Shown piece by piece: positions 20,574 to 58,615 of a DNA stretch of 60,629 nt. Every line of letters begins with the position of its first letter. Within the stretch, counting starts at the first letter, position 1. The position numbers and the translations under genes were made by a program. The notes beneath the pieces were generated by a model. The model ran no database searches. It saw only the letters and a list, made by a program, of their open reading frames with translations, and was not told the origin of the DNA. This DNA comes from Yoonia sp. (GTDB taxonomy: Archaea > Thermoplasmatota > Poseidoniia > Poseidoniales > Poseidoniaceae), in contig CAXRJJ010000034.1 in the NCBI GenBank assembly GCA_964230945.1, positions 1 through 60,629 on the forward strand, in the 5' to 3' direction.

Positions 20574-23500
20574 ATGGGCAGACTTCCAATGGTGGCAGCA
20601 TCTTTGGTTTCTGTGATGCTACTTTCGGTCCTGACCCCATTCTATGCAAATGATGAGAGTTTAGAATACGAAACAATTGCAAGTGTTGTAATCAATGAAG
20701 ACAATTGGTCGAGCAATGGTGCCAGTCGTACTGGTTTGAACCTTAGCGAACAGGGGAAACCTTTGCTTGAGCGCCCCGAATTGCAATGGACAATTGTATC
20801 CGGTACCCCGATTGGAGTTACAGGTTCTGCAGCCGTTGCAATCGAGGAATTGAATCAAGTATGGTTCATCGGTGGAAGGGAAGACCCAAATCCGATTCAA
20901 AATAATGACGAGGTTGCATCCAACTCTGTCCACATTTACCATGTTAACAATGATAGTTGGACTACAGGAACTAGTATGCCTAGTGCTCAACAGTATGCAG
21001 GTGCTGAGAGGATTGGAGACAAGGTGCTGGTTTTTGGTGATTGGTGGCCAACAAATAGTAACCCGGTTATAGACGCTACAGGGATGCTGCAGATTTACAA
21101 TATGACTAACCAGACTTGGTATCAGGGGGCATCTTTGCCCGGTGGACATGCTGTGGGCAACGCTGGAGTAACTACGATGGATGGCTATCTCTATGTCTCA
21201 GGTGGCGTCAAGAAGAATACAGGCCAGAATCCCTCCAACAAAACATTTCGATATGATCCGGATATTGACGAATGGATTACTTTGGCTGACATGAATCGCT
21301 CCAGATGGGGCTTGACATTGACCGCTTTTGACGGAAGATTATATGCCATGGGAGGTGCAAACCATACTTCTTCTAGTTGGTGGATTGCACCGGTAGAATA
21401 TGATGATGTAGAGGTCTATGAGCCGAGTAATGATACCTGGTGGGACTTGCCTGACATGCCGAAGACATTGTTCGGACATGCAAGCGTAGTCCTACACGAA
21501 GAGATTCTCATAATAGGAGGAAGGTATGGTTCTAATTCCAAGAAAACATGGGGTTTTGACCCTCATTCAGGAGTATGGCAATATCACGGTGATTTGTCTA
21601 TAGGGATGTTGGATATCACAGCAGCTCAAATTAATGGAACAGTGGTTGCAGGCACAGGTGACCTCTCTACCTATCTCTATTCAACATGGAATGTCATGTA
21701 TTCAAACGAAGTGAATACTGCTGGTAATGTCAGTTGGCATGAAGGCTGGCTAAATTCAGCCTCTATTGATATGAGGCCTGGGACGGAATTCACTTGCCGT
21801 CCGACTTTGTTAGAAATAACCGCTAATACTCCAACTGGTACTCACATAGAGGCACAGATTCGTAGCCACATGCAAGCCGCTGGACTTTCTTCTTCGATGT
21901 GGAAAGGCCCTGATGGTAGCATCTCTAGTTGGTTTGAGCCTGGCAGTACTAATCTACCTTCAGTCGAAGCGAATCATATCGAGTATAGAGTAAGAATGGC
22001 TACAGAGAACCTACAAGAATGGACAATTCCAGAATTGGATAACATCAAGATCGAAGCAGACCATGTTGGGTTCCATCAACCCCCGCCATCAATCATGCAT
22101 CCGCGCGCCGAACCTACTCAGATTGTTACAGGGCACCGCATCTCTACGGGCTCTGTGACTGATGTGCTATGGCTGTCAACAGCCGATGCTGGAGAGCCTT
22201 CTCTTCGAGCCAATCTAAGCAGAACACCTGCTGGGGTTCTCAACATCGATGACCCGCATGGGTTATTGTTAGCTGGAACCAGTGTTGAACTTCTTTCAGT
22301 TGATTCAGGAGGATATAATCTGTCTTGGAATCTAACATTGGCCGATGGAATATCTGCTAGCACCATTCGCTTTGGCACTAATAGTGTCAATAGCACGGGG
22401 GCAATACTGGAGCACTTGTTAACCGATATCACCCAATTGGATGATTATTTGGAAGTGCGGATGTCAGAACTTTTGGCAAGATGGGGAGGTAGTGATTGGT
22501 CGGATTATTCAATCGGTGGAACCATTTCTGATGGAGCGGAGATCAAGGTCTCAGTACTTCCAGTGTTTCCCTCAACCGGTACTGAGCACGATGGTTCAGG
22601 AATTGATACTAGATTATCCGCCTCCCTAATGATGGAAGACGTTTCAGGAACAGTTGGCTGGTGGAATACTTCGACTGAGTGGACCTCTCTTGAATCCAGT
22701 AGAGAACATTCTTTGCAATTACTCCCCGGGAAAAATGGTTCTCTTGAGGTCCAGATCGAGGCAAGGTCAGTATTAACTTACAATATGACTAGCGGGGATG
22801 ACAAGGTAGTTTTGATGGTAGATGATTCAGGACCTATTCTATACGCTAGCAACCCAGAAAACAACTCTTACATTAACGCGCAGTTGGACCGCAATGTTTC
22901 AATTTCTCTTTGGGAACCCGGTGGCTTAAATCTCGACAGCCTTGCTGTGCAAGTTTGGGTGGAAGGCGATAATGATGGCAACGCCACCTCGCCATTGGAT
23001 GGAATTGCTCAGATAGAGGAATTCATCGAAAAACAGTTCACTGTAGAGCAATCTGGAAATTTCGTATTTCTAAACTTCACTGTTGACGATACCTCCAACA
23101 TTGATCACGGTAGAGTGGAAGTGATACTTTCAGGGTATGATATTGTCAACCATCCATTCCCGGAGAATGGTGCAACATCCCCTTTCTTGACTTGGCAGAC
23201 AAGAGATTCACGTACCGCTGTTCTAGAAGGAATCATGCCAAATGGGACTGTTGTGGCAGGTAAGGGTTTGAGGCTAGAACCGGGGGTTAATTCTGGCTGG
23301 ATAATCGAGTTAAGCGATGCTAATTCTCTTACTGACATACAGAAGGTTGAGTTGAGACTTGGAGGAGATTCGCAACTTGGAGTGCGTTGGTTATCGGGGG
23401 GAGAGGGGTGCAATTCCTTGGATGACAGATTAATCAGTGAGAGTATTTCTTGCGTTGCAACCTATTCCGAGGACTCTATGTTATTGGACATTTCATTTGC

Positions 23501-25127
23501 TCCTACATGGCGCATAGATATAACTCAAATTGAGTTGGGGAAAGTAGAGATTTTTGTTGTTGATATCGATGGTAGCGTTTTGCTTGATTCTGATGAAACT
23601 TGGTTTTTGGCAACCGACTTGGTAGTCAGTAATTTGACTATAAATGACATGACTGGTACATATTCTGGAGTATGTGAGAATGGGCATGTATTGGCTCTTG
23701 GGGATACCTTGGAGGTTTCTGCATACATCGAGCATGGTTCTTCCGGCATTGCTATGCAAGGCCTTGTTTTGATGCGTTGGAGTGGAATTATTCACGGCGA
23801 GGATTGGAGCGGGGAACAAGTTGTGGAATTGGTTCAAGGGCAGATGTTGACTCAATTGTTGGACCCGCCACGCGGTGGTCATGGAGAGGTCCAAATCGAG
23901 ATTTTCGATGAGATGGGCTGGCAGAGTCTTGCACAGAGCGAGTCCATTACCCTCGTAGTAGATGCTGAAGATCCAGTATTACTGCCTCCTGCCAGCCATA
24001 CTCCGCCAAGTCGCTACCATCTTTCTTACATCGTAGTGACGGCCAGTATTTCGGATGATGTGGAATTCAGAAACCCTGCAACAGCTGATTGCCAAGTTGT
24101 ATCGGATGGAATCGAATGGCCAGTTGCTTCGGTAACTGCAGAACCTGTAGGGGTATTCGAGGAACGTAGCGTCTATTCATTCCAATTCAATATGAGTGGC
24201 CTTGGTAGACCATCTGATCTTCCTATAGCGGCCCAATTGATATGCTGGGTTGCAGCTACAGATGAATCAGGCCGCTCATTGATGATCGAGGACGGAGGAA
24301 ATAGCAATGAGACTCCTTGGCTCACAATGCCATTGACAAGTAACGGTCCAAATCTTGAGATGTCCAGTTTTACCAGCGACGTATCTAGTGCAGTCATCGG
24401 TGACAGATTCAGAGTATCTATGGTTGTCAACAATGTTGGTGAGCCCGTGGAAGTTCCATTGTTCGTTAACATTACCATGACCTCGCCAGATGGTGTTGTA
24501 ATGGCGGGATGGAGCGAAACGAGATCGGGTGGCCTAGCAGTCAATGGAATCTGGACAATAACAATTGATTTGTGGCCTGAACAGACTGGGGAGTGGATAT
24601 TCACTGCTACTATTGATCCATTTGATGAGGTTGCAGAATTGAATGAGGGCGACAATAATCTATCTATTACCGTGTCTTTGGATGCTAAGCCAGAAGGGTT
24701 CCTTTCTAGCATCAAGACTCCAGCGATTTGGACCTCCATCGCTTTGGTAGTGCTGCTGTTATCTGCAATGTTGATTCGTCGTCTCAGTTTCTCCGAAGAG
24801 TCAGAAATCGAGTTTGATGAGGAACCTGTTCCTGAAGAAACAGTTACTCCGGCCCAGCCGATTTTTGAGCCATTGGTTTCGGCTCCACCTGTCTCTCAGC
24901 AATCTCAACATAGGGCAAACGCAGCACTAGACAGTCTATTGGTTGAGAACAAGGCTGTTGAGGAGACAAATTCGGGGATACCTCCGATAGGCTCCCATGT
25001 TGCAGATTGGCAAGGTCTTGCTTGGGCTGGAGAGTATCAATATGATGCGGAAGGAACATGGTACTCAGGGCCTGATTGTGGAAGATGGAAACAGAATGAA
25101 GACGGTAGTTTCACGCGGCATTCCTAA
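20574..25127 (+). CDS. Giant Kelch-repeat surface protein (signal peptide, beta-propeller, Ig/CARDB-like domains, single TM, ~116-aa cytoplasmic tail)
   Basis: Signal peptide MGRLPMVAASLVSVMLLSVLTPFYA. Six Kelch-like blades: VWFIGGRED, VLVFGDWW, YLYVSGGVKK, RLYAMGGANH, ILIIGGRYG and TVVAGTGD. A membrane-proximal CARDB-like LNEGDNNLSITVSL is followed by the TM AIWTSIALVVLLLSAMLI and then RRLSF.... Confidence 0.8.
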   Translation: MGRLPMVAASLVSVMLLSVLTPFYANDESLEYETIASVVINEDNWSSNGASRTGLNLSEQGKPLLERPELQWTIVSGTPIGVTGSAAVAIEELNQVWFIGGREDPNPIQNNDEVASNSVHIYHVNNDSWTTGTSMPSAQQYAGAERIGDKVLVFGDWWPTNSNPVIDATGMLQIYNMTNQTWYQGASLPGGHAVGNAGVTTMDGYLYVSGGVKKNTGQNPSNKTFRYDPDIDEWITLADMNRSRWGLTLTAFDGRLYAMGGANHTSSSWWIAPVEYDDVEVYEPSNDTWWDLPDMPKTLFGHASVVLHEEILIIGGRYGSNSKKTWGFDPHSGVWQYHGDLSIGMLDITAAQINGTVVAGTGDLSTYLYSTWNVMYSNEVNTAGNVSWHEGWLNSASIDMRPGTEFTCRPTLLEITANTPTGTHIEAQIRSHMQAAGLSSSMWKGPDGSISSWFEPGSTNLPSVEANHIEYRVRMATENLQEWTIPELDNIKIEADHVGFHQPPPSIMHPRAEPTQIVTGHRISTGSVTDVLWLSTADAGEPSLRANLSRTPAGVLNIDDPHGLLLAGTSVELLSVDSGGYNLSWNLTLADGISASTIRFGTNSVNSTGAILEHLLTDITQLDDYLEVRMSELLARWGGSDWSDYSIGGTISDGAEIKVSVLPVFPSTGTEHDGSGIDTRLSASLMMEDVSGTVGWWNTSTEWTSLESSREHSLQLLPGKNGSLEVQIEARSVLTYNMTSGDDKVVLMVDDSGPILYASNPENNSYINAQLDRNVSISLWEPGGLNLDSLAVQVWVEGDNDGNATSPLDGIAQIEEFIEKQFTVEQSGNFVFLNFTVDDTSNIDHGRVEVILSGYDIVNHPFPENGATSPFLTWQTRDSRTAVLEGIMPNGTVVAGKGLRLEPGVNSGWIIELSDANSLTDIQKVELRLGGDSQLGVRWLSGGEGCNSLDDRLISESISCVATYSEDSMLLDISFAPTWRIDITQIELGKVEIFVVDIDGSVLLDSDETWFLATDLVVSNLTINDMTGTYSGVCENGHVLALGDTLEVSAYIEHGSSGIAMQGLVLMRWSGIIHGEDWSGEQVVELVQGQMLTQLLDPPRGGHGEVQIEIFDEMGWQSLAQSESITLVVDAEDPVLLPPASHTPPSRYHLSYIVVTASISDDVEFRNPATADCQVVSDGIEWPVASVTAEPVGVFEERSVYSFQFNMSGLGRPSDLPIAAQLICWVAATDESGRSLMIEDGGNSNETPWLTMPLTSNGPNLEMSSFTSDVSSAVIGDRFRVSMVVNNVGEPVEVPLFVNITMTSPDGVVMAGWSETRSGGLAVNGIWTITIDLWPEQTGEWIFTATIDPFDEVAELNEGDNNLSITVSLDAKPEGFLSSIKTPAIWTSIALVVLLLSAMLIRRLSFSEESEIEFDEEPVPEETVTPAQPIFEPLVSAPPVSQQSQHRANAALDSLLVENKAVEETNSGIPPIGSHVADWQGLAWAGEYQYDAEGTWYSGPDCGRWKQNEDGSFTRHS

Positions 25128-29124: not shown

Positions 29125-29952
29125 TCACTCGATGGTGTCTCTCTCATGTTCAATATCGGCGGCGAATCCGTCGCGTGCATCTCCCATGCCGCCAAACAGT
29201 GCTTCTGCAAATGAAAGAATGTCTGCCAGCCCTTCTTCCAGTTCACTAGACATTGGAGTTAATCCTGGTGCTTGAGCAAAATCCTGCAAGAGTCGAAGTT
29301 GGTTGATAGCAAATTCAGTTCTTTGCCCACCTGCTTCATCGTAAAGTGCCATCTCTAGAATCTCTAACCTCTCGCCCCATTCCATAATCATCTCAAGTTC
29401 TCCTTCTTCCAGAAGGTCACATTTGGATAGGAAGTTCTTGGTTGGTAATCCTAGTCTGAACTCCACGATGCTTGAGAGGAGCATCTGAGAGACGAAGCCA
29501 CTTGGGGAACGAGAAAGCATTGGATCAAAAAGATAGATTACTGCAGCTTGTTCTCTACCCAATACCTCAATCATGTGACTAGATGCTTCTCTGAATGCAA
29601 ACAATTCGACCTGCCCTGGTGTGTCAATAATCATGATATCTCCTGACAATCCTTCCAATTCTTCAGCGATATCATGTGCTTGAGCAGCGACTAAATCTGC
29701 AGCGAGTATCTGTGCTCCATTAGGCCCTAGATCATATTCGTCCATTACTTCACTAAGGCTAACTAAATCTCTAACGTCGAATTCAGGGTCATGATGTACT
29801 CTCTCTGCACCAGGATCCAAATTTATGGTAAGGGTGTCTACTTCTAGGAAACGAGCCCATCTTTGGAAAGCTGTGGTAAGGGAACTCTTGCCAGCACCTG
29901 CGGTGCCGACCACGAAAAGCACAGGTGGTAAGGTTGCATCTTGGCCTGCCAT
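29125..29952 (-). CDS. GPN-loop GTPase (archaeal PAB0955-like)
   Basis: P-loop GTAGAGKSSL, GPN motif LGPNGAQI, and IIDTPGQVELF. Confidence 0.85.
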   Translation of the reverse strand: MAGQDATLPPVLFVVGTAGAGKSSLTTAFQRWARFLEVDTLTINLDPGAERVHHDPEFDVRDLVSLSEVMDEYDLGPNGAQILAADLVAAQAHDIAEELEGLSGDIMIIDTPGQVELFAFREASSHMIEVLGREQAAVIYLFDPMLSRSPSGFVSQMLLSSIVEFRLGLPTKNFLSKCDLLEEGELEMIMEWGERLEILEMALYDEAGGQRTEFAINQLRLLQDFAQAPGLTPMSSELEEGLADILSFAEALFGGMGDARDGFAADIEHERDTIE

Positions 29953-30115: not shown

Positions 30116-33100
30116 ATGAGCGACGATATGCCCCCTCCGCCCCCCGGACTACCACCAGCCCCTCCAGGTATGGATTCACCACCACCACCACCTGGAATGG
30201 ACCTGCCACCACCCCCACCTGGAATGGATGCGCCACCTATGGATGCTCCACCTGCTCCACCGGGAATGGACCTTCCACCACCACCTGGAATTGACGCACC
30301 ACCTATGGATGCTCCACCTGCTCCGCCGGGAATGGATTTGCCACCTCCCCCTCCAATGGACGCACCACCAGCGCCTCCAGAAATGGACGCACCACCAGCA
30401 CCTCCAGAAATGGATGCTTCAGAGGAATCGGTAGATGCAGACCCATTGTCTATGGATTTGCCTCCTCCTCCTCCAATGGATGCGCCCCCTGCTCCTCCAG
30501 AGATGGATGCACCGCCTGCACCACCCGGACTAGAGGCACCACCACCTCCTCCAATGGATGCGCCACCAGCTCCTCCGGAGATGGACGCACCACTTGCGCC
30601 ACCTGGACTAGAGGCGCCACCACCTCCTCCAATGGATGCGCCCCCTGCTCCTCCAGAGATGGATGATGCACCGCCTGCACCACCCGGACTAGAGGCACCA
30701 CCACCTCCTCCAATGGATGCGCCACCAGCTCCTCCGGAGATGGACGCACCACCTGCACCACCTGGTCTAGATTTGCTAGCAACACCGCCACCGCCACCTC
30801 CAAGCGAAGATCCACTCGCTCCACCTGCACCGCCGGGGGTAGATCTCCTTGCTCCAGCTCCTCCTGAGGATGCTCCTGAACCGCCAAGTGCTGACTTATT
30901 GACCGGCGGCTCTGACGAAGAGGGTACTGAATTTGATGAATCTTCTACTCCATCAGGTGTCCATGCCGGAGGATCTCTGCGAGATATTGGATCCGTTGAT
31001 TCAATACAGGGTGACAAGATATACGCATCACTCAATGAAACTGAAGATGCTCTACTTTCTTGCGATGGAGATATCGTGAAGCAGAATGTAAAGGGTGTAA
31101 TGACGCTCCACAATCCAAGTTCCGAGGACAGGCTATGGGATATCGATGTATTCCTGTCTGGAACCGAATCTACAGATTTCAGTAATGCCCACATGCCAGT
31201 TGATGAGTTGGAACCCGATAGTGACCACAGTGTCGATTACAAAGTGAAGGGCGCAAGAATGTTGGTTATCAGGGAACGCATTGATACAAACCCTTCCCGT
31301 TCTCAAGAGCGCAGTTTATCAGTATCCCATGATAGTGAGGCTACTGCTATTGCTCTTGAGTTGGAAGTTGAGAATGTCTCGAGTGTACAAGTCGATGATG
31401 TAGAAGTAACAAGAGATGTACCTGATGCAATTGAAATCACCACAGGTGGAGATGTCGAAGATGGGGTTCTGACATGGAAGGTTGGAACTCTACAAGCAGG
31501 TGAGACAAGGACCTTGACTTGCGAGGCCAATGTTTTGGTTCAAGATATCAAGCCAGTCAACGCTGGTGTGACCAAAGCCACCTATTCCTCTGATGCAACT
31601 CTCTCTAGTGTGCATTTCACAGAAGTCGATGCCTTCTGTAGAGGATTCTCTTACATGGTTGTTGATGAGGATGAGCGCCCAGACAACTGGCGTTGTCAAG
31701 CGGTGTTCGAGAACCGATCAAGTTTCGCTGTTGACCTTGTTAAACTTCAGGTGAGAGTATCTGGAAGCGACGAATTATTGTTTGATGTAGCGGATGTGTC
31801 AGATGACGTACCTCCACAAGGAAAGTGGGAATCTGAGGTAAAGGAAGTAGCCGCTAATGAGCGCCCAGACTTCACCAATGAATTGGGTTATTCTGTAATA
31901 CCTCGAGTTGAACACAAAACCAACGGTAGCATTGAACTGGAGCCACAGACATTCACCATTTTGGAAGCAGATGTGACCAAGACATATGATGCAGCGACTC
32001 TAAGAAGCTACAGAGAACAGGTTGTCAATTCCTGTATTACCATCAAGAATACTGGTTCCGCTGACATCAATCTGATGCGACTAACCGATGATGTTCCAGG
32101 GTTGTTTTCAAACCCTGATCCAGAGGCGGTTACCATCACAATCGATGGAGATAGGATGAGCCCAGAGCAATTCCGCGTGGAATTGAAGGATGGAGTGACC
32201 CTTGAGGAGTTCCGAAGAAGTCCTGATGGTGATGGTTGCACTATCCAATTGACAATCGGAACTCGCGGCCCTGTTGGCTTGAAACCTAATTCGACTATGG
32301 AAATCAGTTACTCATTGACTGCTCCTGACCCGAGTCCAGATAATGCGGAGATTGCAGCTCCAGCACGTACTGAATTTAGTGCTGAGAGATTTGGACCTGT
32401 CTGTGCCAGAGATGCTGCAGAAGCACCAGTAATCAGAGTCTCACACAAGCGAAGAAAGTTCAGTGCTGGAAAGACAGTAATTCCAGTAGGCGGCAAGGGC
32501 CGTTATGAAGTGATGATCATATTCGAGAACAGATCAGATACTGCGCTACAAGATTTGGTAATTCATGACATCCTCCCTGCAGGATTTGAAATCAAGGATT
32601 GTATTGTACGCGGTGCAGGTAATGAAAAGAGAAGCGATGTTGAAATGAATACTGATTCACAAGAAGATGGTACCAAGGTAGAATGGAATGTTCCAGTCAT
32701 CGCCAAGGATGAGAGATTGGAAGTGTCCTATGAAATCAAGGGAGATGGCGACATCGATGCTGAAGCCATGCAGAAATTCCACGGTGCAACATTTGGTGAC
32801 GAGGTTGAAGATGATTCTTCCTTAGCCAGCCTACCATCCGCTGCTGCTGATTCTTCAGACGATACTGGAGATAGTGAAGCTGATGAAGATAGTTCTGATG
32901 AGGATGCTTCTGCCTTCAGTTGGAATGAGAATGTACTGTCCAAGGTGATGGAGGCTCATGGCATAACAGATAGGGATGCATTTTTGGCCCATGCCATTGG
33001 CTTCGATGCTGATGACAACAACTACCTGAACAAAGGAGAATTGACTGCTGCTGCTGAAGCCTGGAGTGAAGGTGGCGATGAAGAATCAGCCGAAGAAAAT

Positions 33101-33322
33101 GAAGATGATGTAGAGGAGGCTGACGCCGCTGCTTCCGAAGAAGAGACTTCCGAAGAAGAGACTTCAGAAGAGGAGTCTGAGGACGAGGGAGAAGAGGATT
33201 CTGAAAGTGAAGAAGAATCTGCTGCGGATGATGTAACTGATGTATTGGTCTGTGAGATCTGTCAAACAAATAATCCAGCAGGTAGTGCAACCTGCTCGAC
33301 CTGTGGTTTCGTATTCTCTTGA
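30116..33322 (+). CDS. Large signal-peptide-less protein: N-terminal polyproline/PPG tandem array, beta-sandwich (DUF11/CARDB-like) repeats, EF-hand-like loop, poly-acidic region, C-terminal zinc ribbon
   Basis: Starts MSDDMPPPPPGLPPAPPGMD with no hydrophobic leader, and GGAG lies 9 nt upstream. The body has DUF11-like strands (LTWKVGTLQAGETRTLTCEANV; VEWNVPVIAKDERLEVSYEIKG). An EF-hand loop DADDNNYLNKGE is coded at 33005..33040. An E/D/S-rich tract follows, then CEICQTNNPAGSATCSTCG (33251..33319). Confidence 0.75.
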   Translation: MSDDMPPPPPGLPPAPPGMDSPPPPPGMDLPPPPPGMDAPPMDAPPAPPGMDLPPPPGIDAPPMDAPPAPPGMDLPPPPPMDAPPAPPEMDAPPAPPEMDASEESVDADPLSMDLPPPPPMDAPPAPPEMDAPPAPPGLEAPPPPPMDAPPAPPEMDAPLAPPGLEAPPPPPMDAPPAPPEMDDAPPAPPGLEAPPPPPMDAPPAPPEMDAPPAPPGLDLLATPPPPPPSEDPLAPPAPPGVDLLAPAPPEDAPEPPSADLLTGGSDEEGTEFDESSTPSGVHAGGSLRDIGSVDSIQGDKIYASLNETEDALLSCDGDIVKQNVKGVMTLHNPSSEDRLWDIDVFLSGTESTDFSNAHMPVDELEPDSDHSVDYKVKGARMLVIRERIDTNPSRSQERSLSVSHDSEATAIALELEVENVSSVQVDDVEVTRDVPDAIEITTGGDVEDGVLTWKVGTLQAGETRTLTCEANVLVQDIKPVNAGVTKATYSSDATLSSVHFTEVDAFCRGFSYMVVDEDERPDNWRCQAVFENRSSFAVDLVKLQVRVSGSDELLFDVADVSDDVPPQGKWESEVKEVAANERPDFTNELGYSVIPRVEHKTNGSIELEPQTFTILEADVTKTYDAATLRSYREQVVNSCITIKNTGSADINLMRLTDDVPGLFSNPDPEAVTITIDGDRMSPEQFRVELKDGVTLEEFRRSPDGDGCTIQLTIGTRGPVGLKPNSTMEISYSLTAPDPSPDNAEIAAPARTEFSAERFGPVCARDAAEAPVIRVSHKRRKFSAGKTVIPVGGKGRYEVMIIFENRSDTALQDLVIHDILPAGFEIKDCIVRGAGNEKRSDVEMNTDSQEDGTKVEWNVPVIAKDERLEVSYEIKGDGDIDAEAMQKFHGATFGDEVEDDSSLASLPSAAADSSDDTGDSEADEDSSDEDASAFSWNENVLSKVMEAHGITDRDAFLAHAIGFDADDNNYLNKGELTAAAEAWSEGGDEESAEENEDDVEEADAAASEEETSEEETSEEESEDEGEEDSESEEESAADDVTDVLVCEICQTNNPAGSATCSTCGFVFS
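30128..30890 (+). repeat. In-frame proline-rich tandem repeat array (PPAPPGMD / PPPPPMDAPPAPPEMDAPPAPPGLEA units)
   Basis: Degenerate 24-48-nt units run from 30128. Four 78/78/81/78-nt units at 30461..30775 are arranged A-B-A'-B', and A/A' and B/B' are nearly identical at the DNA level. Confidence 0.9.
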
Positions 33323-33328
33323 TTACTG

Positions 33329-34741
33329 CTAGTTCTTGCCCCAAACCGGCCATGCGGATGGCTGATTTTGGTCGGCTACAAGCAGAATAACAGGGATTTC
33401 CAATCCGTCTATGGCTCCCTGAACATTGCTAATATCTACAGGAACTCTTCCTTCTACTTGCAGGTCTACTGCTAGCCAAATACCTGGGTTTTGTTGAGTC
33501 CAAACAGACAGTTCTGCTTTGGCGGCTTCGATACGATCATCGGGCCTCGATTTCAGCAATTCCATTCCCCAGGGTACTTCTCCATATGAGGTAGTCCAGC
33601 ACCAGACTCTCTGTTCCTGTGGAAGTTTGGCTAATTGTGTCAAGGCATTATCTTCACTGGCTACAACCGGTTGTCCTGGTATGGGCATTTCTTGCATTTC
33701 AATGATATTTTCTTCAGAAACATTCTCGTCATCTAGTTCAGGATGCGTTTCAGGTATCTCTTCTGTAGATGTTTCGGGAGTGGTATCGGGAGTTTCAACA
33801 GAAGTTGCACTCTCACCCACTTGGAATGGCAAGTTAACCTGCTCCACTTCTTCTAGCTCCTCATCCTCAATTTCTGTATCAGGTAGGACCTCTGGCTCAG
33901 GAGTTTGTATTGTAGTAGTAGCCAAATCCCAATGATCAGAACTTATCCAAGAATCTGAATCCGTAGTTTCGGGAACTTCCTCAAATGGCTGACTCCATTC
34001 TGCTCTTGATTCGGGAGCATCCAATCCAGATCCAGGCATTGATATCTGTAGTCTGTTATCTGTATCTTCCTCTTCTTCTTCAAGAAGACCCATGCCGAGG
34101 TCTATTGCTTCATGTACGATATCATCTTGTACAATTCCTGCCATCGCTTCTATAGAACCAGGTGGTGCTTGGACAGAAGAGATCGAGGAAGTTGGTTCTG
34201 AATGATTTGAGGCTAGAGATGGAACTTGTTCTGAAACCAATGGTGCGCACATCTCTAGGACCGAATGCAACTCCGTAGAAGTACTACCGCCATCGACGAA
34301 AGCATCCAGCAACCTTTGCCAAGCAACGTCTGCCTTACGTCTAGCAATCAAAGCGCGTCCAATATTGGCTAATGCTTCATTGGACCTGTATGAAATCGCC
34401 ATGCAGCGTTCAAAGGATTTCAAAGCTGCTTTACTCCGGCCGGTAGACAAAGCACAGTTTCCAACTAACATGTGTAGTTCACCGGAGTCCTCGCTTTTTC
34501 GAATCGCCTTTTGCAGATGTGGCAAAGCCGCCTCATATCTTTGCTGTTGAAACAATATACGTCCTAATTTTTCGTGTAATTCACTATTTCTTGGATGCAC
34601 GCGAACAGCCCTTCGCAATTCTGAGATCGCATCATCGTGCAACCCCATTTTGGCCTGCGCCTCGGCCATGGCGATGGTCGCAGAAACCGCATCCATGCTT
34701 TGCAATGAACGTCTCCGGTGAAAAGATGTCGGAGCGAGCAT
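33329..34741 (-). CDS. TPR-repeat protein with long acidic linker and uncharacterised C-terminal domain
   Basis: The N-terminal ~170 aa have TPR-like helices (AISELRRAVRVHPRNSELHEKLGRILFQQQRYEAALPHLQKAI...). The middle is E/D/T/P-rich. No signal peptide. Convergent with the polyproline gene, 6 bp apart. Confidence 0.6.
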   Translation of the reverse strand: MLAPTSFHRRRSLQSMDAVSATIAMAEAQAKMGLHDDAISELRRAVRVHPRNSELHEKLGRILFQQQRYEAALPHLQKAIRKSEDSGELHMLVGNCALSTGRSKAALKSFERCMAISYRSNEALANIGRALIARRKADVAWQRLLDAFVDGGSTSTELHSVLEMCAPLVSEQVPSLASNHSEPTSSISSVQAPPGSIEAMAGIVQDDIVHEAIDLGMGLLEEEEEDTDNRLQISMPGSGLDAPESRAEWSQPFEEVPETTDSDSWISSDHWDLATTTIQTPEPEVLPDTEIEDEELEEVEQVNLPFQVGESATSVETPDTTPETSTEEIPETHPELDDENVSEENIIEMQEMPIPGQPVVASEDNALTQLAKLPQEQRVWCWTTSYGEVPWGMELLKSRPDDRIEAAKAELSVWTQQNPGIWLAVDLQVEGRVPVDISNVQGAIDGLEIPVILLVADQNQPSAWPVWGKN

Positions 34742-34804
34742 CTAGCATTTCCAAGTCAACTCTTCTCAAACAACCTTATGCAGCGTAATCCAACGGAAGT
34801 AAAC

Positions 34805-35722
34805 ATGGCACAGGCTGGAGCAGCACCAGGGCCCCCCGCACCACCGGGTGGTCAGATGATGCTGATGCTGTTCTTCATGCTCCTGATGATGCTCTTGTTG
34901 ATGAATGAGGGATTCCGATCTGGTTTAGCCGACTATGCGGATCCTTTGCTAGCGCCGATACTTCCTGAGGAGAAATGGTTCGTCATCACAGTATTCTTTA
35001 TCGGTACTGCTTCGATGTTGATTAACACCGTTTTGCGCAATCTCTTCATCGATCCAATCAAGCAGGCTCACATCGGTCACCGCATGTCGCAGGTGCGCCG
35101 AATGATGAATGAAGCAACCTTGGCAAGAGACCCAATTCGCAAGGATAAGGCAGCAACCTTGCAACAACAATTGATGCCTGAACAGATGGATGTACAGATG
35201 GGTGGGATGAAACCAATGATGTTCACCTTCATCTTCATCATTGCAATTTTCGCATGGGTCGGTGAGGTTGTTAGCGGATACCGTGTCGATTACGTATCGC
35301 TTCCATGGAAACAACATTGGAACATGAGCACCGGTACCTTCCTGTTCTTTCCAGCTTGGATTTGCGTATACATCTGCATGTCTGCGCCCTTGGGTAGGGC
35401 GGTTGACAGGCACATCAAATTGTTAAGATTCAAATCCCATCCAGTGGTTCTTGCAGGAGAGAAGATACCTGAGCCATATCTGCATCTGATTCAAACCAAA
35501 GAAGGTGTTTCTTCGGGCAGGGGAAGAGGCCGCAATAATCAGCGCAAGACAAGAAGTAAGGCCAAGAGTAAGAAGCAAGTTGGTAAGTTGATACCTACTG
35601 CTATTTCTGCACGTACTCCTCCTCAACAAGGGACTATTTGCCCTGAATGTGATGGGGATGTAGTTGAGAGGGCAGGAAGCGGAGAGTTGCGATGTTCTAT
35701 CTGTCGGCATCAGTGGAAGTGA
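34805..35722 (+). CDS. DUF106 / EMC3-TMCO1-like archaeal YidC/Oxa1-superfamily insertase fused to a basic tail and C-terminal zinc ribbon
   Basis: ATG at 34805. A TM is followed by a Met/Gln-rich amphipathic hairpin (LQQQLMPEQMDVQMGGMKPMMF) and two more TMs. The tail is SSGRGRGRNNQRKTRSKAKSKKQ followed by CPECDG...CSICRHQW. The gene sits directly upstream of cmk-cbf5, as in many archaea. Confidence 0.7.
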   Translation: MAQAGAAPGPPAPPGGQMMLMLFFMLLMMLLLMNEGFRSGLADYADPLLAPILPEEKWFVITVFFIGTASMLINTVLRNLFIDPIKQAHIGHRMSQVRRMMNEATLARDPIRKDKAATLQQQLMPEQMDVQMGGMKPMMFTFIFIIAIFAWVGEVVSGYRVDYVSLPWKQHWNMSTGTFLFFPAWICVYICMSAPLGRAVDRHIKLLRFKSHPVVLAGEKIPEPYLHLIQTKEGVSSGRGRGRNNQRKTRSKAKSKKQVGKLIPTAISARTPPQQGTICPECDGDVVERAGSGELRCSICRHQWK

Positions 35723-46555: not shown

Positions 46556-48112
46556 GTGCAGCCGCAACCCGGGGCCTATGACCCAACCACGCCTACTGGC
46601 TATGCTCCGCAACAGCCATTTATGCAACAACCGATGATGCAGGCGCAGATGCAGCCATTACAGAATCAACAGATGGCGCAACAATATGTGCAACAACAAC
46701 AGATGATGTATCAGCAGCAGATGGCTTTCAAACAGCCAAGAATACAACGTCCTGGTTGGACAACTCCTAGTTTGACTAAGGCAGGAATTCTTGGAATCGT
46801 GATTCTTGTATTGAGCATAACTGGACTGATCATGGATGCTAGTGGAACTCCATGGGTTTGGAGTGATGATGACAATGGAACATTGTTAGATGGAGAAGAA
46901 ATGTTGGATGAGATTGATGATATCGATGAACAGCCACCTTTCGTATTGCGTATGATGCTATGGCCTACTACCATAATGATTCTTGGAATTGTGTTTTCCG
47001 TCCCATTGATTGTAATTGACCTAGTGCCAATGCCTAAACGCGTCCAAGGAGGTTTACACGGCCTATTCCTGCTTGCAAATGGAACCTGTGGGATTTTCAT
47101 GATGATGAGTTTTGGAGAGTGGCTGGGTTCTTACTTCAACCAGATGTTTGCGCCTGGAGATATGGAGATGCATATGCATGTTATGGTATACTATAATGCC
47201 ATTCTGGGCCTAGCATTAGGTGCCTCATTTATGTTGTTTGAATCTAGTCTTGAGAAAGTTTCAGATGGTTGGAAAACCGGTGAATTGCAGAGGCCAATGT
47301 ACAAGGTCGCATCTAATTTGATGTTATGTGCAGTAATCGCCTTGGTATTCACTCCATTATTCCCAATTGCTTGGCAATCATACTCTGATGATTACAAGGA
47401 CTCTCCTTGGTATGATGAAGAGAAAGATGGTTCGGGAGAACCATTGGCTCCATTAATGTTAGATTCATTCTATTTCAGCATTGAAGAATCTGATGGTTCT
47501 TGGTACCCTGACTGGGATCAAATGGAGAAAGACTCTCCTGACACATATGATGTACTCGTAAATAAGGCTAGGTTACATGATTACTTTTTGGTGGTTCTAT
47601 GGGTGCAACTATCATTGATGGTAATGATGATTGGTATTTCGTTGCCTAAAATGCAGAAAATAATGGAAGGAGTCTGCCAAATCAATGCCCTATTGGTCGG
47701 ATTCTTGATTCCAATTGTGATTTTCACGATTCTCATGTATATCTCAATTCCCGGAATGCATGGGGAATTAGTTAGTGATAGCACATACGATGGAGTATCA
47801 TTCCATTTGAATTGGTTCTTACCATTAGCGGCTATTTTAGTTGTCATCAACTGGTTTGTTTTCTTGTTCCGAATACACATACCTTGGTGGAAGAAGATAA
47901 CAGCTAAGGATCTAAGCAAGTTGTGGATGGATAATAACGCGTTCGGACAACCGATGATGCAACAACCCATGGTTATGCAACAACCTATGCAACAGATGGC
48001 TCCGCAGGCCCAGCAGCAAATGGTGCAACAGCAACAGATGCAACAGATGGCGATGCAGCAGCCGGCACAACAGGTGGCGCCGCAATTTCAGCAACCACAG
48101 ATGCCAAGATGA
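46556..48112 (+). CDS. Polytopic membrane protein with Gln/Met/Pro-rich low-complexity N- and C-termini
   Basis: 518 aa with a GTG start. The N-terminal ~60 aa and C-terminal ~60 aa are Q/M/P repeats (QQPMMQAQMQPLQNQQMAQQYVQQQQMMYQQQ; QPMMQQPMVMQQPMQQMAPQAQQQMVQQQQMQQMAMQQP). About 8 TM helices lie between them. Confidence 0.6.
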   Translation: MQPQPGAYDPTTPTGYAPQQPFMQQPMMQAQMQPLQNQQMAQQYVQQQQMMYQQQMAFKQPRIQRPGWTTPSLTKAGILGIVILVLSITGLIMDASGTPWVWSDDDNGTLLDGEEMLDEIDDIDEQPPFVLRMMLWPTTIMILGIVFSVPLIVIDLVPMPKRVQGGLHGLFLLANGTCGIFMMMSFGEWLGSYFNQMFAPGDMEMHMHVMVYYNAILGLALGASFMLFESSLEKVSDGWKTGELQRPMYKVASNLMLCAVIALVFTPLFPIAWQSYSDDYKDSPWYDEEKDGSGEPLAPLMLDSFYFSIEESDGSWYPDWDQMEKDSPDTYDVLVNKARLHDYFLVVLWVQLSLMVMMIGISLPKMQKIMEGVCQINALLVGFLIPIVIFTILMYISIPGMHGELVSDSTYDGVSFHLNWFLPLAAILVVINWFVFLFRIHIPWWKKITAKDLSKLWMDNNAFGQPMMQQPMVMQQPMQQMAPQAQQQMVQQQQMQQMAMQQPAQQVAPQFQQPQMPR

Positions 48113-57600: not shown

Positions 57601-58615
57601 TGATGGAGATGGAAAGGGAGACAATCCAGTTGGTGCATCGGCTGATCAGTGCCCAGATACTTTAGCGGAAGAAAAGGACATGATCAATTACGAAGGTTGT
57701 GGTCCAAGTGAGCGAGATTCGGATTATGATGGAATAACGGATGCTATGGATGATTGTCCTAATACTTCTCCGTTTGAAGTCATCAAGGTCGATTCAAACG
57801 GCTGTGCTCCTTCTGAGGTTGATAGTGATGGAGACGGGGTATCTGATGATCTTGATTGGGCGCCTCTTGATGCAAATCAGAGTAGTGACGATGACGAGGA
57901 CGGCTTTGGCGACAATCATTTGGCTCCAGACGGTGATGACTGCCCAGAAACTGCAGGAACCAGCACGAAGGACAGACGCGGTTGCATAGACAGTGATGGA
58001 GATGGTTACAGCGACCCCGATTCCACATGGTCAATTCCACAAGGCGCTGATTGGCGCAGTTCAGATCCAACTCAATGGTCTGATTCGGATGGAGATGGTT
58101 ATGGGGATAATTGGGGTAATCCTGAATGGAATGAAAGCAGGAACTCCAGTTGGCCAGGAACTTTTGTTCCCTCTGCTAGTAAGCCTGACAAATGTCCTTT
58201 ACAGGCTTATGAATATGCACAATCTGATGGTTGTCCACCCGATGATTCAGTTCAAGATGATGAATCTGATAGTCTGTCTGACGACACTTCCAGTGGTTCT
58301 GACACGACTTTGATGTACGGATTAGCAGCTTTGGGTGGAATTGTAGTTCTCGGATTAGTCGGTGCTGTTGTAGTGCTCTTGAGAAAGCCACCCCCTACTA
58401 GGAAAAGACCCACAAAAGAACCAGAGGTAGTACATGAAGAAGAGCCTGTAGTCGAGAACGTCGATGCGGTTACTTGGGTTCAATCGTGGGAAGAGTTGCC
58501 TTCTGGCGGGGAATATTTGCCTGCAGATTCAAATGGGACTGTATGGTACAGAACTCTAGAAGGAGAACACTGGCAACAGGAACATGACCAGTCATGGAGC
58601 CTATGGCAAGGATGA
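54650..58615 (+). CDS. Giant surface protein: WD40 beta-propeller + PstS-like periplasmic-binding-fold domain + thrombospondin type-3 Ca-binding repeat array + TM + 77-aa cytoplasmic tail
   Basis: GTG start (ATG alternative at 54677). Signal/anchor SVFLVFLLLCSIPALQLSAA. WD40-like blades include VTWSPDGMYIAGAGDGNVNLYW, LKFSPNGSYLAVGG, LAWSSNGSYLYTGADNEIRRF, LEFSPDGRWLLTGGFDNMVNIYNV and ISFHPKGSHFILA. A PBP-like stretch follows (LTTGQLRWFLSG...IKEWSDIS). More than 10 TSP3 units are present (GCPDQDGDGYAD, DSDLDGFGDN, GCIDEDGDGWSN, DSDSDGYGDN, DRDGDGFGDE, ...). TM LAALGGIVVLGLVGAVVVLL. Confidence 0.85.
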   Translation: MKHPDKSRFMVSAKSVFLVFLLLCSIPALQLSAATDGDGDGIDDALDDCEFAAGNSTIDFTGCPDQDGDGNPDFIGVNYPAWNDSSRELYHSGGDSRAVTWSPDGMYIAGAGDGNVNLYWVGGLLTVLHTIDENVRALKFSPNGSYLAVGGYEEDQWENRYGWMLVLEMNWASLTATVVQNLSSMHPDTDVPSLAWSSNGSYLYTGADNEIRRFSVHDNWMMDMNYSYYSGNVWALDTSPDDRLIAGISGGGELKVYWAENGTSYMEFNNHTGSHALGLEFSPDGRWLLTGGFDNMVNIYNVSNKSLYDSILIGSDVYGISFHPKGSHFILARQSSSALIYDSENWELSSSFGSFGSSNNNRGLRAVEWSPSEYAIAFGQRRGRIVTHVVDEGYMQISGGELTYGLEEDWRQEWQPNHGKLVGTQNMNSYFGTVGLCSNNGILHASVQGPDTTYVSEDANYSSNGQLDCLTSADTLLEIPIGRVPMTFAVKQSGLIDSCLSSIGGLTTGQLRWFLSGSSENALAAGIGELPGLNISSVAPNDDTDGIKEWSDISSNCPEDEMVFVHEWENKTDSAILMKELFCSGCQQKDSLYSHSNDRARFQVEYPSEVLDGLNGPAGDSLLGMVDLMYATNNPAGISLVPIVDNLTHGIVDALAAGDVAVQATYNNSRDGLWPVQSDYTYLINSNDIEDKRSFIEWSLDTNGIIFWENHEFVRLSILDQVRSWAIMGHDRTWMLPDDDGDGIWDGDDQCENTPSGSIVDENGCAEVQLDDDSDGINNALDDCDTSFGNATQSPYVGCPDQDGDGYADVDDSFVQDSSQWRDSDLDGFGDNPLGNQADSCPDVVGNSTEDRFGCIDEDGDGWSNADESGEWGIENGSDAFPSDSLQWKDSDSDGYGDNYYWQGESDARVNQSGDSFIDDPSQWWDRDGDGFGDEVNGTNGDNCPDVPGTSIKNETYGCIDSDGDGYADSIDDLPQESTQWWDRDGDGKGDNPVGASADQCPDTLAEEKDMINYEGCGPSERDSDYDGITDAMDDCPNTSPFEVIKVDSNGCAPSEVDSDGDGVSDDLDWAPLDANQSSDDDEDGFGDNHLAPDGDDCPETAGTSTKDRRGCIDSDGDGYSDPDSTWSIPQGADWRSSDPTQWSDSDGDGYGDNWGNPEWNESRNSSWPGTFVPSASKPDKCPLQAYEYAQSDGCPPDDSVQDDESDSLSDDTSSGSDTTLMYGLAALGGIVVLGLVGAVVVLLRKPPPTRKRPTKEPEVVHEEEPVVENVDAVTWVQSWEELPSGGEYLPADSNGTVWYRTLEGEHWQQEHDQSWSLWQG

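What the first reader, a model, noticed from the sequence alone, without database searches (positions are those of the whole stretch)
30128..30890. Cytoplasmic polyproline/PPG array (about 260 aa) reminiscent of FH1/WASP-type proline scaffolds
The 1068-aa protein starts MSDDMPPPPPGLPPAPPGMD with no signal peptide or TM, so the array should be cytoplasmic. It consists of dozens of PPPPP, PPAPPG and PPG[MLI][DE] units separated by acidic M-D/E residues. PPG and poly-Pro are the ligands of GYF, WW class II/III, profilin and EVH1-type readers in eukaryotes. Such dense arrays are rare in prokaryotic cytoplasmic proteins. The window also encodes two membrane proteins with WW/GYF-like cytoplasmic ends, so a ligand-reader pair is a testable hypothesis (inference only).
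Basis: inference. Interest (0 to 1): 0.68.

Follow-up and report, generated by a model that had tools for sequence, protein, structure and literature searches.

The report
Polyproline arm on archaeal adaptor-like protein
The proline-rich array is real: it is the disordered N-terminal arm of a cytoplasmic protein found across marine Group II archaea, whose folded core resembles the cargo-binding domain of eukaryotic vesicle-adaptor proteins, and its binding partner is still unknown.

Summary
Window 30116-33322 (+) encodes a 1068-aa protein. Residues 5-262 are 45% proline, with no Lys/Arg, about 24 units of [ML][DE][AL]PP[AP]PP[GE], then three D-L-L-[AT] motifs. There is no signal peptide or TM segment, either here or in any complete orthologue.

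The gene occurs across Poseidoniales (214 loci in species genomes) in fixed synteny. Array length varies (2-30 PPxPP per orthologue), and 49 of 83 contigs end inside the array.

Residues ~297-890 form five beta-sandwich domains. These belong to a family otherwise named only in Asgard archaea and already listed there as candidate homologues of the AP mu-subunit C-terminal (mu-homology) domain. HMM, Pfam and Foldseek evidence agree. The C-terminus adds an EF-hand-like helical module and a C4 zinc ribbon.

Best reading: a cytoplasmic scaffold whose polyproline arm offers many docking motifs, as in FH1, WASP or SGIP1/FCHo. This function is inferred, not shown.

The two "WW/GYF-like" tails are real. 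They belong to a module found on many MGII surface proteins, but they match no WW or GYF model or fold. Binding to the array was not tested.

The parts
30116..33322 (+). Whole gene: a 1068-aa acidic cytoplasmic protein, found once per locus across Poseidoniales
   Evidence: ORF. More than 650 homologues. 214 loci in species genomes. Synteny is conserved.
30128..30901 (+). Polyproline/PPAPP[GE] array, aa 5-262, about 24 units, predicted disordered or PPII
   Evidence: Composition and motif counts. Tandem repeats. Motif logo across orthologues.
30770..30904 (+). Three D-L-L-[AT] motifs (aa 219-222, 243-246, 260-263) at the end of the array. Orthologues carry the equivalent [DAP]-L-L-[AST]-P motifs.
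31004..31720 (+). Mu-homology-domain-like double beta-sandwich (aa ~297-535). Its second subdomain is also the Pfam DUF11/CLIPPER match (aa 411-493, 31346-31594).
   Evidence: AF2 model. Foldseek to AP2/AP3 mu and delta-COP mu-homology domains, TM 0.62-0.69 on target length. Family profile versus PDB. PF00928 hits in relatives. Residue mapping. Pfam DUF11 hit.
31721..32785 (+). Three further beta-sandwich domains (aa 536-890) that complete the conserved ~590-aa core
   Evidence: AF2 secondary structure with pLDDT mostly >85. Core length is constant across the family.
32915..33073 (+). Three-helix module with an EF-hand-like loop DADDNNYLNKGE (33005-33040). One orthologue subclade has a SAP domain here instead.
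   Evidence: AF2 helices. Weak, non-significant EF-hand hits with E 0.17-1.2. SAP in relatives.
33239..33319 (+). C-terminal C4 zinc ribbon (CxxC-x10-CxxC) with four invariant Cys
   Evidence: Invariant C757, C760, C771 and C774 of the 779-aa query. Weak DZR and zinc-ribbon Pfam hits.
24990..25124 (+). Candidate reader, not shown to belong: Trp-rich C-terminal module on the cytoplasmic tail of the 1517-aa Kelch/CARDB surface protein
58472..58612 (+). Candidate reader, not shown to belong: Trp-rich C-terminal module on the cytoplasmic tail of the 1321-aa WD40/TSP3 surface protein
   Evidence: AF2 pLDDT >90 for the module.
33329..34741 (-). Convergent neighbour. Its C-terminal domain (33332-33745) is a ~130-aa orphan protein that sits next to the gene across the order. 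In this lineage it is fused to TPR repeats.
29125..29952 (-). Divergently transcribed GPN-loop GTPase. The adjacency is conserved across the order (context only).

Best explanation
The array is the N-terminal, intrinsically disordered (polyproline-II-prone) arm of a cytoplasmic scaffold protein found across Poseidoniales (Marine Group II archaea).

The folded core (aa ~297-890) is five beta-sandwich domains. The first two form a mu-homology-domain-like unit, homologous to proteins previously listed in Asgard archaea as candidate relatives of the C-terminal domain of clathrin-adaptor mu subunits.

The arm carries 2-30 copies of a conserved motif, [EDG]-[MA]-P-P-A-P-P-[EG]-M (about 24 units here), followed by a few [DA]-L-L-[AT] motifs. 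An acidic linker, a small helical (EF-hand-like or SAP) module and a C4 zinc ribbon follow the core.

Most likely the arm works as a multivalent docking platform, like the FH1, WASP or VASP proline regions or the proline-rich linkers of SGIP1, FCHo and stonins. Many copies of a proline-recognising partner would bind along it and be concentrated next to whatever the core and zinc ribbon hold.

Shown here: the array, its conservation and length variability, the absence of export signals, and the homology and fold of the core. Inferred: that the motifs are ligands, and what reads them.
For: - Conservation: more than 650 homologues, all Poseidoniales-type, nearly all with the array. There are 214 loci in GTDB species genomes. 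All 32 complete N-termini carry the array and an acidic cap. The apparent exception, L054, has the array upstream of an N-run.
- Motif rather than composition: the centre is A in 79% of instances, position +6 is M in 70%, position -1 is M or A in 91%. This holds over 1155 instances in orthologues whose cores are only ~50% identical.
- No other ORF in about 1 Mb of Poseidoniales sequence has such an array.
- Cytoplasmic location: no TM segment or signal peptide and an invariant C4 ribbon.
- Core fold: AF2 mean pLDDT 82, five beta-sandwiches.
- Core family: the profile finds proteins of ~590-760 aa that match the whole core at E 1e-35 to 1e-76. These are named Njord-, Loki/Prometh-, Hel- and Sigynarchaeota and Harpocratesius.
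- Link to the mu-homology domain: 26 of 57 family members hit Pfam PF00928, best E 1.9e-10, and P0198 scores 34.9 bits against a cut-off of 31.6. The family profile's only significant PDB hits are AP-3 and AP-2 mu (7.7e-5 to 1e-3), with delta-COP at 0.02. Foldseek of the window model matches mu2, mu3A and delta-COP mu-homology domains with TM 0.62-0.69 on target length.
- Link to the published Asgard set: the window core aligns to the published candidate Jordarchaeia_GBS07_35160 at E 1e-21 (PMC10307638 Table S3).
Against: - No reader of the motif has been identified and no binding was tested.
- The window protein itself does not reach any PF00928 threshold.
- An MGII-only profile finds no mu subunit in the PDB, so the link is transitive through the Asgard relatives plus the predicted fold.
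- Most PF00928 alignments cover subdomain B, which overlaps the DUF11 match. Generic Ig-like similarity therefore contributes to the signal.
- Copy number is highly variable, which a simple spacer would also tolerate.
- Beta-sandwich arrays with DUF11 are typical of extracellular adhesins (PMC12617251).
Confidence: 0.5

Rival explanations
1. The array is read by the Trp-rich C-terminal modules on the cytoplasmic tails of the large surface proteins, so the scaffold clusters or anchors those proteins from inside the cell. This is a specific version of the best explanation.
For: - The module exists on both window proteins.
- It is found on 21 of 120 retrieved Poseidoniales proteins. All 21 share one architecture: ectodomain, one TM segment, an 80-190 aa linker, then the module at the very C-terminus.
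- A second gene family in other genomes also carries it.
- AF2 gives a confident small Trp/Tyr-rich beta-meander with pLDDT >90.
- The pattern of aromatic pair, turn, then W-x-x-W resembles a WW triple strand.
- Both partners would sit in the cytoplasm and both occur in the same order.
Against: - No WW, GYF or GYF_2 Pfam hit at E<=10.
- Foldseek finds no WW domain; the best E-value is 1.5.
- The model has four strands, a shorter second loop, and no Pro after the last Trp.
- Co-occurrence was shown only at the level of the order, where all genes co-occur trivially.
- No co-folding could be run.
Confidence: 0.15
2. Passive spacer or entropic bristle. The acidic polyproline segment is a stiff, non-sticky rod that sets distance or excluded volume around the core, with no specific reader, as in the TonB proline-rich region.
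For: - Length varies widely even among close relatives: 137 to 326 aa in complete N-termini, and 1054 versus 1074 aa total at 94-96% identity.
- The segment has no Lys, Arg or aromatic residues and a net charge of -44.
- Recent DNA-level duplications are visible, with a 159-nt period at 94% matches.
Against: - The free N-terminus carries only a 4-8 residue acidic cap, so there is nothing to space.
- Position-specific conservation of A, M and E/G around the prolines holds across lineages whose cores are ~50% identical.
- A second conserved motif class, xLL[AST]P, is present.
Confidence: 0.2
3. Translational throttle. Dozens of PPP, PPG, APP and DPP stalling motifs at the start of the ORF make synthesis dependent on aIF5A, and so tune how much protein is made.
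For: The array sits at the extreme N-terminus and is made of motifs known from work on EF-P and eIF5A to stall ribosomes (established knowledge). The array is unique to this gene in about 1 Mb sampled.
Against: - Nothing here tests it.
- A few motifs would be enough for a throttle, whereas 10-30 are maintained.
- Non-proline positions are also conserved.
- Most lineages use PPAPP or PPMPP rather than long Pro runs.
Confidence: 0.07
4. Extracellular stalk. The protein is exported by an unrecognised route and acts as a mucin- or adhesin-like surface fibre. This is suggested by the DUF11/CLIPPER domain and the beta-sandwich chain.
For: - The DUF11 hit is above threshold, 37.4 bits against 24.6.
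- The top Foldseek E-values go to integrin legs and the streptococcal C123 adhesin.
- DUF11 is typical of fibrillar adhesins (PMC12617251).
Against: - No signal peptide, TM segment or C-terminal sorting signal appears in any orthologue.
- An invariant C4 zinc ribbon and an EF-hand/SAP module are present.
- No invariant Lys occurs in the DUF11-like domain, so the isopeptide triad is probably absent.
- The integrin matches have TM of only 0.13-0.16.
- The Asgard relatives also lack export signals.
Confidence: 0.05

Closest known systems
Asgard archaeal 'Adap_comp_sub' (PF00928) candidate eukaryotic signature proteins (Eme et al. 2023, PMC10307638, Suppl. 4.3.1 and Table S3)
   Same: Same protein family. 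The window core aligns to Jordarchaeia_GBS07_35160 at 25% identity over ~300 aa, E 1e-21. The profile hits Njord-, Loki-, Hel- and Sigyn-type proteins across all five domains at E 1e-35 to 1e-76. No signal peptide is present in either group.
   Different: The Asgard members are ~590-760 aa and have no polyproline arm. They carry short or helical ~110-aa extensions instead, and most lack the EF-hand/SAP and zinc-ribbon tail. The paper does not mention Poseidoniales. Here the gene occurs across a non-Asgard order.
Eukaryotic mu-homology-domain adaptors with disordered or proline-rich regions (SGIP1, FCHo1/2/Syp1, stonins) and the AP mu / delta-COP C-terminal domains
   Same: A two-subdomain beta-sandwich module matches mu2, mu3A and delta-COP. 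The overall logic is also shared: a long disordered, motif-bearing region attached to a mu-homology domain (architecture known from the literature; my own knowledge).
   Different: There is no longin domain, F-BAR domain or stonin-homology domain. Three extra beta-sandwiches follow the mu-homology-like unit. The window protein does not reach the Pfam threshold itself. No clathrin, AP large subunits or endomembranes are known in these archaea. The cargo-pocket residues were not examined.
FH1 domains of formins and the proline-rich regions of WASP/VASP
   Same: Tandem short polyproline motifs with a flanking hydrophobic residue or Gly (xPPxPPGM). These are multivalent and disordered.
   Different: No FH2, WH2, VCA or EVH1 domain is present. 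No profilin or actin link was found or tested. The array is strongly acidic.
DUF11/CLIPPER stalk domains of fibrillar adhesins (PMC12617251)
   Same: One domain (aa 411-493) matches Pfam PF01345 above threshold. The protein is a chain of Ig-like beta-sandwiches.
   Different: No signal peptide or sorting signal is present. No conserved Lys is available for the isopeptide bond. The protein has cytoplasmic-type termini.
WW domains (as a model for the tail module)
   Same: A small Trp/Tyr-rich antiparallel beta-meander, with an aromatic pair on one strand and a Trp on the next, and ~20 residues between the outer Trp residues.
   Different: No Pfam WW hit and no WW structure found by Foldseek. The module has four strands, a shorter loop 2, and W-x-x-W instead of W-x-x-P.

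Membership tests
Mu-homology domain (Pfam PF00928, Adap_comp_sub) | Sequence match to the family model above its gathering score | tested here: inconclusive
   The window protein has no hit at E<=0.01. Among its clear homologues, 26 of 57 hit at E<0.01, best 1.9e-10, and P0198 scores 34.9 bits against a cut-off of 31.6. The family profile's only significant PDB hits are AP-3 and AP-2 mu.
Mu-homology domain (Pfam PF00928, Adap_comp_sub) | Elongated fold of two beta-sandwich subdomains that superposes on solved mu-homology domains | tested here: met
   Foldseek of the AF2 model matches mu3A (4ikn), mu2 (6bnt, 2pr9, 5wrk) and delta-COP (5nzu). E is ~1e-8, TM on target length 0.62-0.69, rmsd 5-6 A. 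Strand counts of 6 + 8 + return strands fit. The inserted-subdomain topology was not checked on coordinates.
Mu-homology domain (Pfam PF00928, Adap_comp_sub) | Peptide-motif pocket residues (YxxPhi site of mu2, or Trp-motif site of delta-COP) | not tested
   No residue-level structural alignment was available.
AP / COPI medium subunit | N-terminal longin domain fused to the mu-homology domain, and assembly with large and small subunits | tested here: not met
   The N-terminus is the polyproline array and no longin or Clat_adaptor_s hit is present. Complex formation cannot be tested here.
Formin FH1 / WASP-type proline region | Polyproline tracts next to an FH2 domain or a WH2/VCA region, read by profilin or SH3/EVH1 | tested here: not met
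   The tracts are present, but no FH2, WH2 or related Pfam domain occurs anywhere in the protein. Whether the genome has a profilin could not be tested.
DUF11 / CLIPPER adhesin domain (PF01345) | Pfam match above the gathering score | tested here: met
   aa 411-493, 37.4 bits against 24.6, E 3.4e-9.
DUF11 / CLIPPER adhesin domain (PF01345) | Lys-Asp-Asn intramolecular isopeptide triad, plus a signal peptide and cell-surface context (PMC12617251) | tested here: not met
   No invariant Lys lies within the domain across 44 orthologues. The invariant residues there include E128, E130 and N131 of the 779-aa query. No signal peptide or TM segment is present.
WW domain (tail modules) | Match to the Pfam WW model | tested here: not met
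   No WW hit at E<=10 for either tail.
WW domain (tail modules) | Three-stranded WW fold recovered by structure search | tested here: not met
   The AF2 model has four strands and pLDDT >90. Foldseek's best E-value is 1.5 and no WW domain is in the top 50. For a 40-residue module this is weak negative evidence.
GYF domain (tail modules) | GYF motif on a beta-sheet packed against an alpha-helix, and a Pfam GYF or GYF_2 match | tested here: not met
   No Pfam hit. The AF2 model has no helix of 4 or more residues.

The most novel reading that the evidence does not exclude
Poseidoniales, a non-Asgard order that is among the most abundant archaea in the surface ocean, may keep a working cargo-adaptor-like system.

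In this reading the mu-homology-like core reads the Trp-rich cytoplasmic tails of the giant surface proteins, as delta-COP and mu2 read Trp- or Tyr-based motifs. The FH1-like polyproline arm and the DLL-type motifs would recruit further factors, and the zinc ribbon with the EF-hand or SAP module would tie the assembly to another cellular structure.

That would be a prokaryotic analogue, and a homologue, of muniscin- or stonin-type adaptors outside the Asgard-eukaryote lineage. It would imply that this 'eukaryotic signature' module is either older than Asgard archaea or moved between archaeal phyla.
Probability: 0.12. Interest if true: 0.9.

Novelty: new variant of a known kind. Interest (0 to 1): 0.7.

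Why it matters
Candidate homologues of the adaptor mu-homology domain have been reported in Asgard archaea and used as evidence for an archaeal origin of vesicle-coat parts.

This work shows that the same family occurs across a different, very abundant marine order. There it has gained an FH1-like polyproline arm, a calcium- or DNA-type helical module and a zinc ribbon.

If the arm is a true ligand array, it is one of the clearest cases of eukaryote-style multivalent proline-motif signalling in a prokaryotic cytoplasm. It would also give a concrete bait for finding the partner.

The finding bears on how 'eukaryotic signature proteins' are counted. There is also a practical point: the array breaks more than half of short-read assemblies at this locus, so gene models start inside it and the arm is under-reported.

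Tried and rejected
1. A homologue search with only the two 50-aa tails found nothing because the query was too short for the word index. Repeating it with ~275-aa C-terminal regions worked, but many hits were driven by the TSP3-type calcium repeats.
2. Foldseek of the tail model gave no significant match. The CPAP G-box, which binds a proline motif, appeared at E 4.1 and was discarded as noise.
3. The MGII-only profile against the PDB gave only non-significant EF-hand, eL40 and Nup153 zinc-finger hits.
4. I suspected the conserved neighbour might be a TPR reader of PPG repeats, as in the peptide-binding domain of prolyl 4-hydroxylase. The part conserved across the order turned out to be the non-TPR C-terminal domain. 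It has no Pfam or meaningful PDB match. I also considered a longin-like identity, and nothing supports it.
5. L054 looked like a lineage without the array. The array is in fact upstream of an N-run. P0106-type short N-termini may be truncated gene calls in the same way.
6. Gene neighbourhoods of three Asgard homologues share nothing with the MGII locus. The GPN-GTPase adjacency is therefore specific to Poseidoniales, and may only reflect strong local synteny.
7. One literature search on 'MHD' returned only unrelated papers.
8. NCBIfam added only a sub-threshold DUF11 repeat hit.
9. A fused tail-linker-peptide AF2 run was considered but not attempted. The tool returns no coordinates or contacts, and both AF2 jobs were needed elsewhere.
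Full report
**Observation.** The + strand ORF 30116-33322 encodes 1068 aa that begin MSDDMPPPPPGLPPAPPGMD. Residues 5-262 (30128-30901) contain 117 prolines in 258 residues. The binomial tail at a 5% background is 3.5e-80. There is no Lys or Arg and the net charge is -44.

The segment parses into about 24 units of the form [ML][DE][AL]PP[AP]PP[GE]. Counts are PPPPP 10, PPAPP 13 and PPG 12. Three D-L-L-[AT] motifs follow, at aa 219-263. Tandem Repeats Finder reports nested periods of 27, 66, 78 and 159 nt, with up to 94% matches.

The ORF cannot be extended upstream. No 19-residue window is hydrophobic; the maximum Kyte-Doolittle score is 0.95. The 370-aa Gly-rich ORF on the opposite strand is the complement of the Pro codons. 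The observation and its coordinates are therefore correct.

**Organism and conservation.** Neighbouring genes show that the window is archaeal. They include a GPN-loop GTPase, Cbf5 with DKCLD and PUA domains, and an EMC3/TMCO1-type insertase.

A search with the non-proline part (aa 290-1068) found more than 650 homologues. Those that carry names are Poseidoniaceae, Thalassarchaeaceae or Poseidoniales (Marine Group II). Identity is 50-97% across the whole query. Almost all have an N-terminal array of the same kind.

A scan of one genome per GTDB species found 214 loci. Apart from three obviously mis-binned contigs, all 80 that were kept come from Poseidoniales-type MAGs. All 32 complete N-termini start with a short acidic cap (MSEE.., MTDE..) followed directly by the array. 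None has a signal peptide. The one apparent exception, L054, has the array upstream of a run of N.

In 49 of 83 loci the contig ends inside the array. In six more the array is interrupted by a frameshift or a gap. The array is therefore repetitive enough at the DNA level to break assemblies, and many database gene models start inside it.

Across 1155 PPxPP instances in 117 orthologues the pattern is [EDG]-[MA]-P-P-A(79%)-P-P-[E 39%/G 30%]-M(70%). A motif is conserved, not just a composition, between lineages whose cores are only about 50% identical. No other ORF in about 1 Mb of Poseidoniales sequence has such an array.

**The rest of the protein.** AlphaFold2 on aa 290-1068, with 44 sequences, gave mean pLDDT 82. 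The model shows:
- five beta-sandwich domains (protein aa ~297-890);
- a disordered acidic linker;
- a three-helix module containing DADDNNYLNKGE, which fits the EF-hand loop pattern (my own knowledge; the PDB hits to EF-hand proteins are not significant);
- a second acidic linker;
- a C4 zinc ribbon whose four Cys are invariant.

In one subclade the helical module is replaced by a SAP domain. Pfam sees only DUF11/CLIPPER, at aa 411-493.

**The core family.** A profile of N-terminally short orthologues was searched against 1.84 billion representative proteins. It found 1804 hits. These include many proteins of 590-760 aa that match the whole five-domain core at E 1e-35 to 1e-76, and none of the twelve examined has an export signal.

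Every one of these remote homologues that carries a name is from Asgard archaea: Njordarchaeia, Loki/Promethearchaeota, Helarchaeota, Sigynarchaeum and Harpocratesius. A 687-aa paralogue without the array also exists in Poseidoniales. One further unnamed archaeal contig carries a close relative.

The core length is constant at 575-620 aa across the family. Only the Poseidoniales orthologues have a proline-rich N-terminus.

**Link to the mu-homology domain.** Three independent lines of evidence agree.
1. 26 of 57 family members hit Pfam PF00928 (Adap_comp_sub), with best E 1.9e-10. One is above the curated cut-off (P0198, 34.9 against 31.6 bits). One alignment spans model positions 12-234 of 259.
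2. The family profile searched against all PDB sequences gives significant hits only to AP-3 mu (7.7e-5) and AP-2 mu (2.8e-4 to 1e-3). Delta-COP (0.02), AP-1 mu (0.1) and AP-4 mu (0.8) follow, all collinear. These map to window residues ~279-331 and 406-509.
3. Foldseek of the window protein's own model matches mu3A, mu2 and delta-COP mu-homology domains. E is about 1e-8 and TM is 0.62-0.69 normalised to the target. The higher-ranked integrin legs reach only TM 0.13-0.16.

Eme et al. 2023 already listed Asgard 'Adap_comp_sub' proteins as candidate eukaryotic signature proteins (PMC10307638, Suppl. 4.3.1 and Table S3). The window core aligns to one of their sequences at E 1e-21, so it is the same family.

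There are caveats. The window protein does not hit PF00928 on its own. An MGII-only profile does not find mu subunits. Most Pfam alignments cover the subdomain that overlaps the DUF11 match. I found no paper linking Poseidoniales to this family or to a proline-rich protein.

**Context.** The local gene order is fixed across the order: UbiA, OTCase, GPN GTPase (-), this gene (+), a small gene (-), EMC3, CMP kinase, Cbf5, CARDB protein.

The small convergent neighbour is a ~130-aa orphan with no Pfam or meaningful PDB match. In the window lineage it is the C-terminal domain of a 470-aa TPR protein. Three Asgard homologue loci share none of this context. The adjacency may therefore be plain synteny rather than a functional link.

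The same module ends 21 of 120 retrieved Poseidoniales proteins. All 21 share the same architecture. It also ends a second gene family in other genomes. Two sequence flavours align with each other.

AF2 gives a confident four-strand beta-meander. However, Pfam WW and GYF models do not match, and Foldseek finds nothing significant and no WW domain. The module is real and specific to this group as far as sampled. It is WW-like only in its pattern of aromatic residues. Binding to the array remains untested.

**Interpretation.** I commit to a cytoplasmic scaffold in which the polyproline arm is a multivalent docking array attached to an adaptor-like core (confidence about 0.5). Its reader is unknown. 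The tail modules are the most concrete candidate (about 0.15). An alternative pairing, the core reading the Trp-rich tails, is the most novel reading not excluded.

A passive spacer (0.2), a translational throttle (0.07) and an exported stalk (0.05) are less likely, for the reasons given under the rival explanations.

Relative to what is known, this is a new variant. It combines a published but uncharacterised Asgard family, present in a different phylum, with an FH1-like arm and a zinc-ribbon tail.

Noticed in passing
window 33332-33745 (-), within gene 33329-34741; also L001:12833-13252 and about 60 other loci: A ~130-140 aa orphan protein lies convergently, 7-100 bp from the stop of the polyproline gene, in at least 66 of 73 Poseidoniales loci. 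Its motif is PLPMPMPGQPVC..WTD..ASVRQGVPP..AWLAVDLRDG..WPxW. In the window lineage it is fused behind TPR repeats and an acidic linker. It has no Pfam or meaningful PDB match.
   Followed up: partly
window 29125-29952 (-): A GPN-loop GTPase is transcribed divergently from the polyproline gene, with a ~160-bp intergenic region. This adjacency is kept in every Poseidoniales locus that has upstream sequence, but not in three Asgard homologue loci.
   Followed up: partly
L003-L082 (genome-contig loci): 49 of 83 contigs end inside the array. Six more (L001, L024, L026, L029, L054, L072) have a frameshift or N-run within it. Public gene models for this family therefore often start at an internal Met of the array.
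   Followed up: yes
L001:3064-5151, L033:2038-5241, L036:5838-6704, L076:5474-6682: A second membrane-protein family ends in the same Trp-rich C-terminal module (..DE[SN]GY.W....G..WYR....W..). In these proteins the module follows a conserved helical segment, ELEQVALRWEYSLMLR.
   Followed up: partly
window 46556-48112 (+): A 518-aa multi-TM protein has Gln/Met/Pro-rich low-complexity N- and C-termini (QPQPGAYDPTTPTGYAPQQPFMQQPMM...). It has no Pfam match.
   Followed up: no
window 34718-35722 (+): The EMC3/TMCO1 (YidC-like) insertase homologue carries a single GPPAPPGG motif. This is the only other PPAPP in the window apart from one PPMPP in a short ORF.
   Followed up: no
L005, L028, L061: Contigs labelled Deltaproteobacteria AH-558-G13, Salipiger bermudensis MAG and Rhodobiaceae MAG carry this gene with full Poseidoniales synteny. 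These are likely binning or sorting contamination in public records.
   Followed up: partly
P0014-P0017, P0022, P0023, P0075; L011, L012: In one orthologue subclade the EF-hand-like helical module before the zinc ribbon is replaced by a SAP domain (Pfam E 8e-9). SAP is a DNA/RNA-binding type of module.
   Followed up: partly
L085:9127-10188 (-): In a Promethearchaeota genome, an Arf/Gtr1-RagA-type GTPase gene lies about 1 kb downstream of the mu-homology-like homologue P0198. This is a single case.
   Followed up: no
window 20574-25127, 48299-54595, 54650-58615: Three very large secreted or anchored proteins lie within 60 kb: Kelch plus CARDB (1517 aa), S8 subtilase with Ig-like domains (2098 aa), and WD40 plus TSP3 repeats (1321 aa). 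Only two of the three end in the Trp-rich module.
   Followed up: partly
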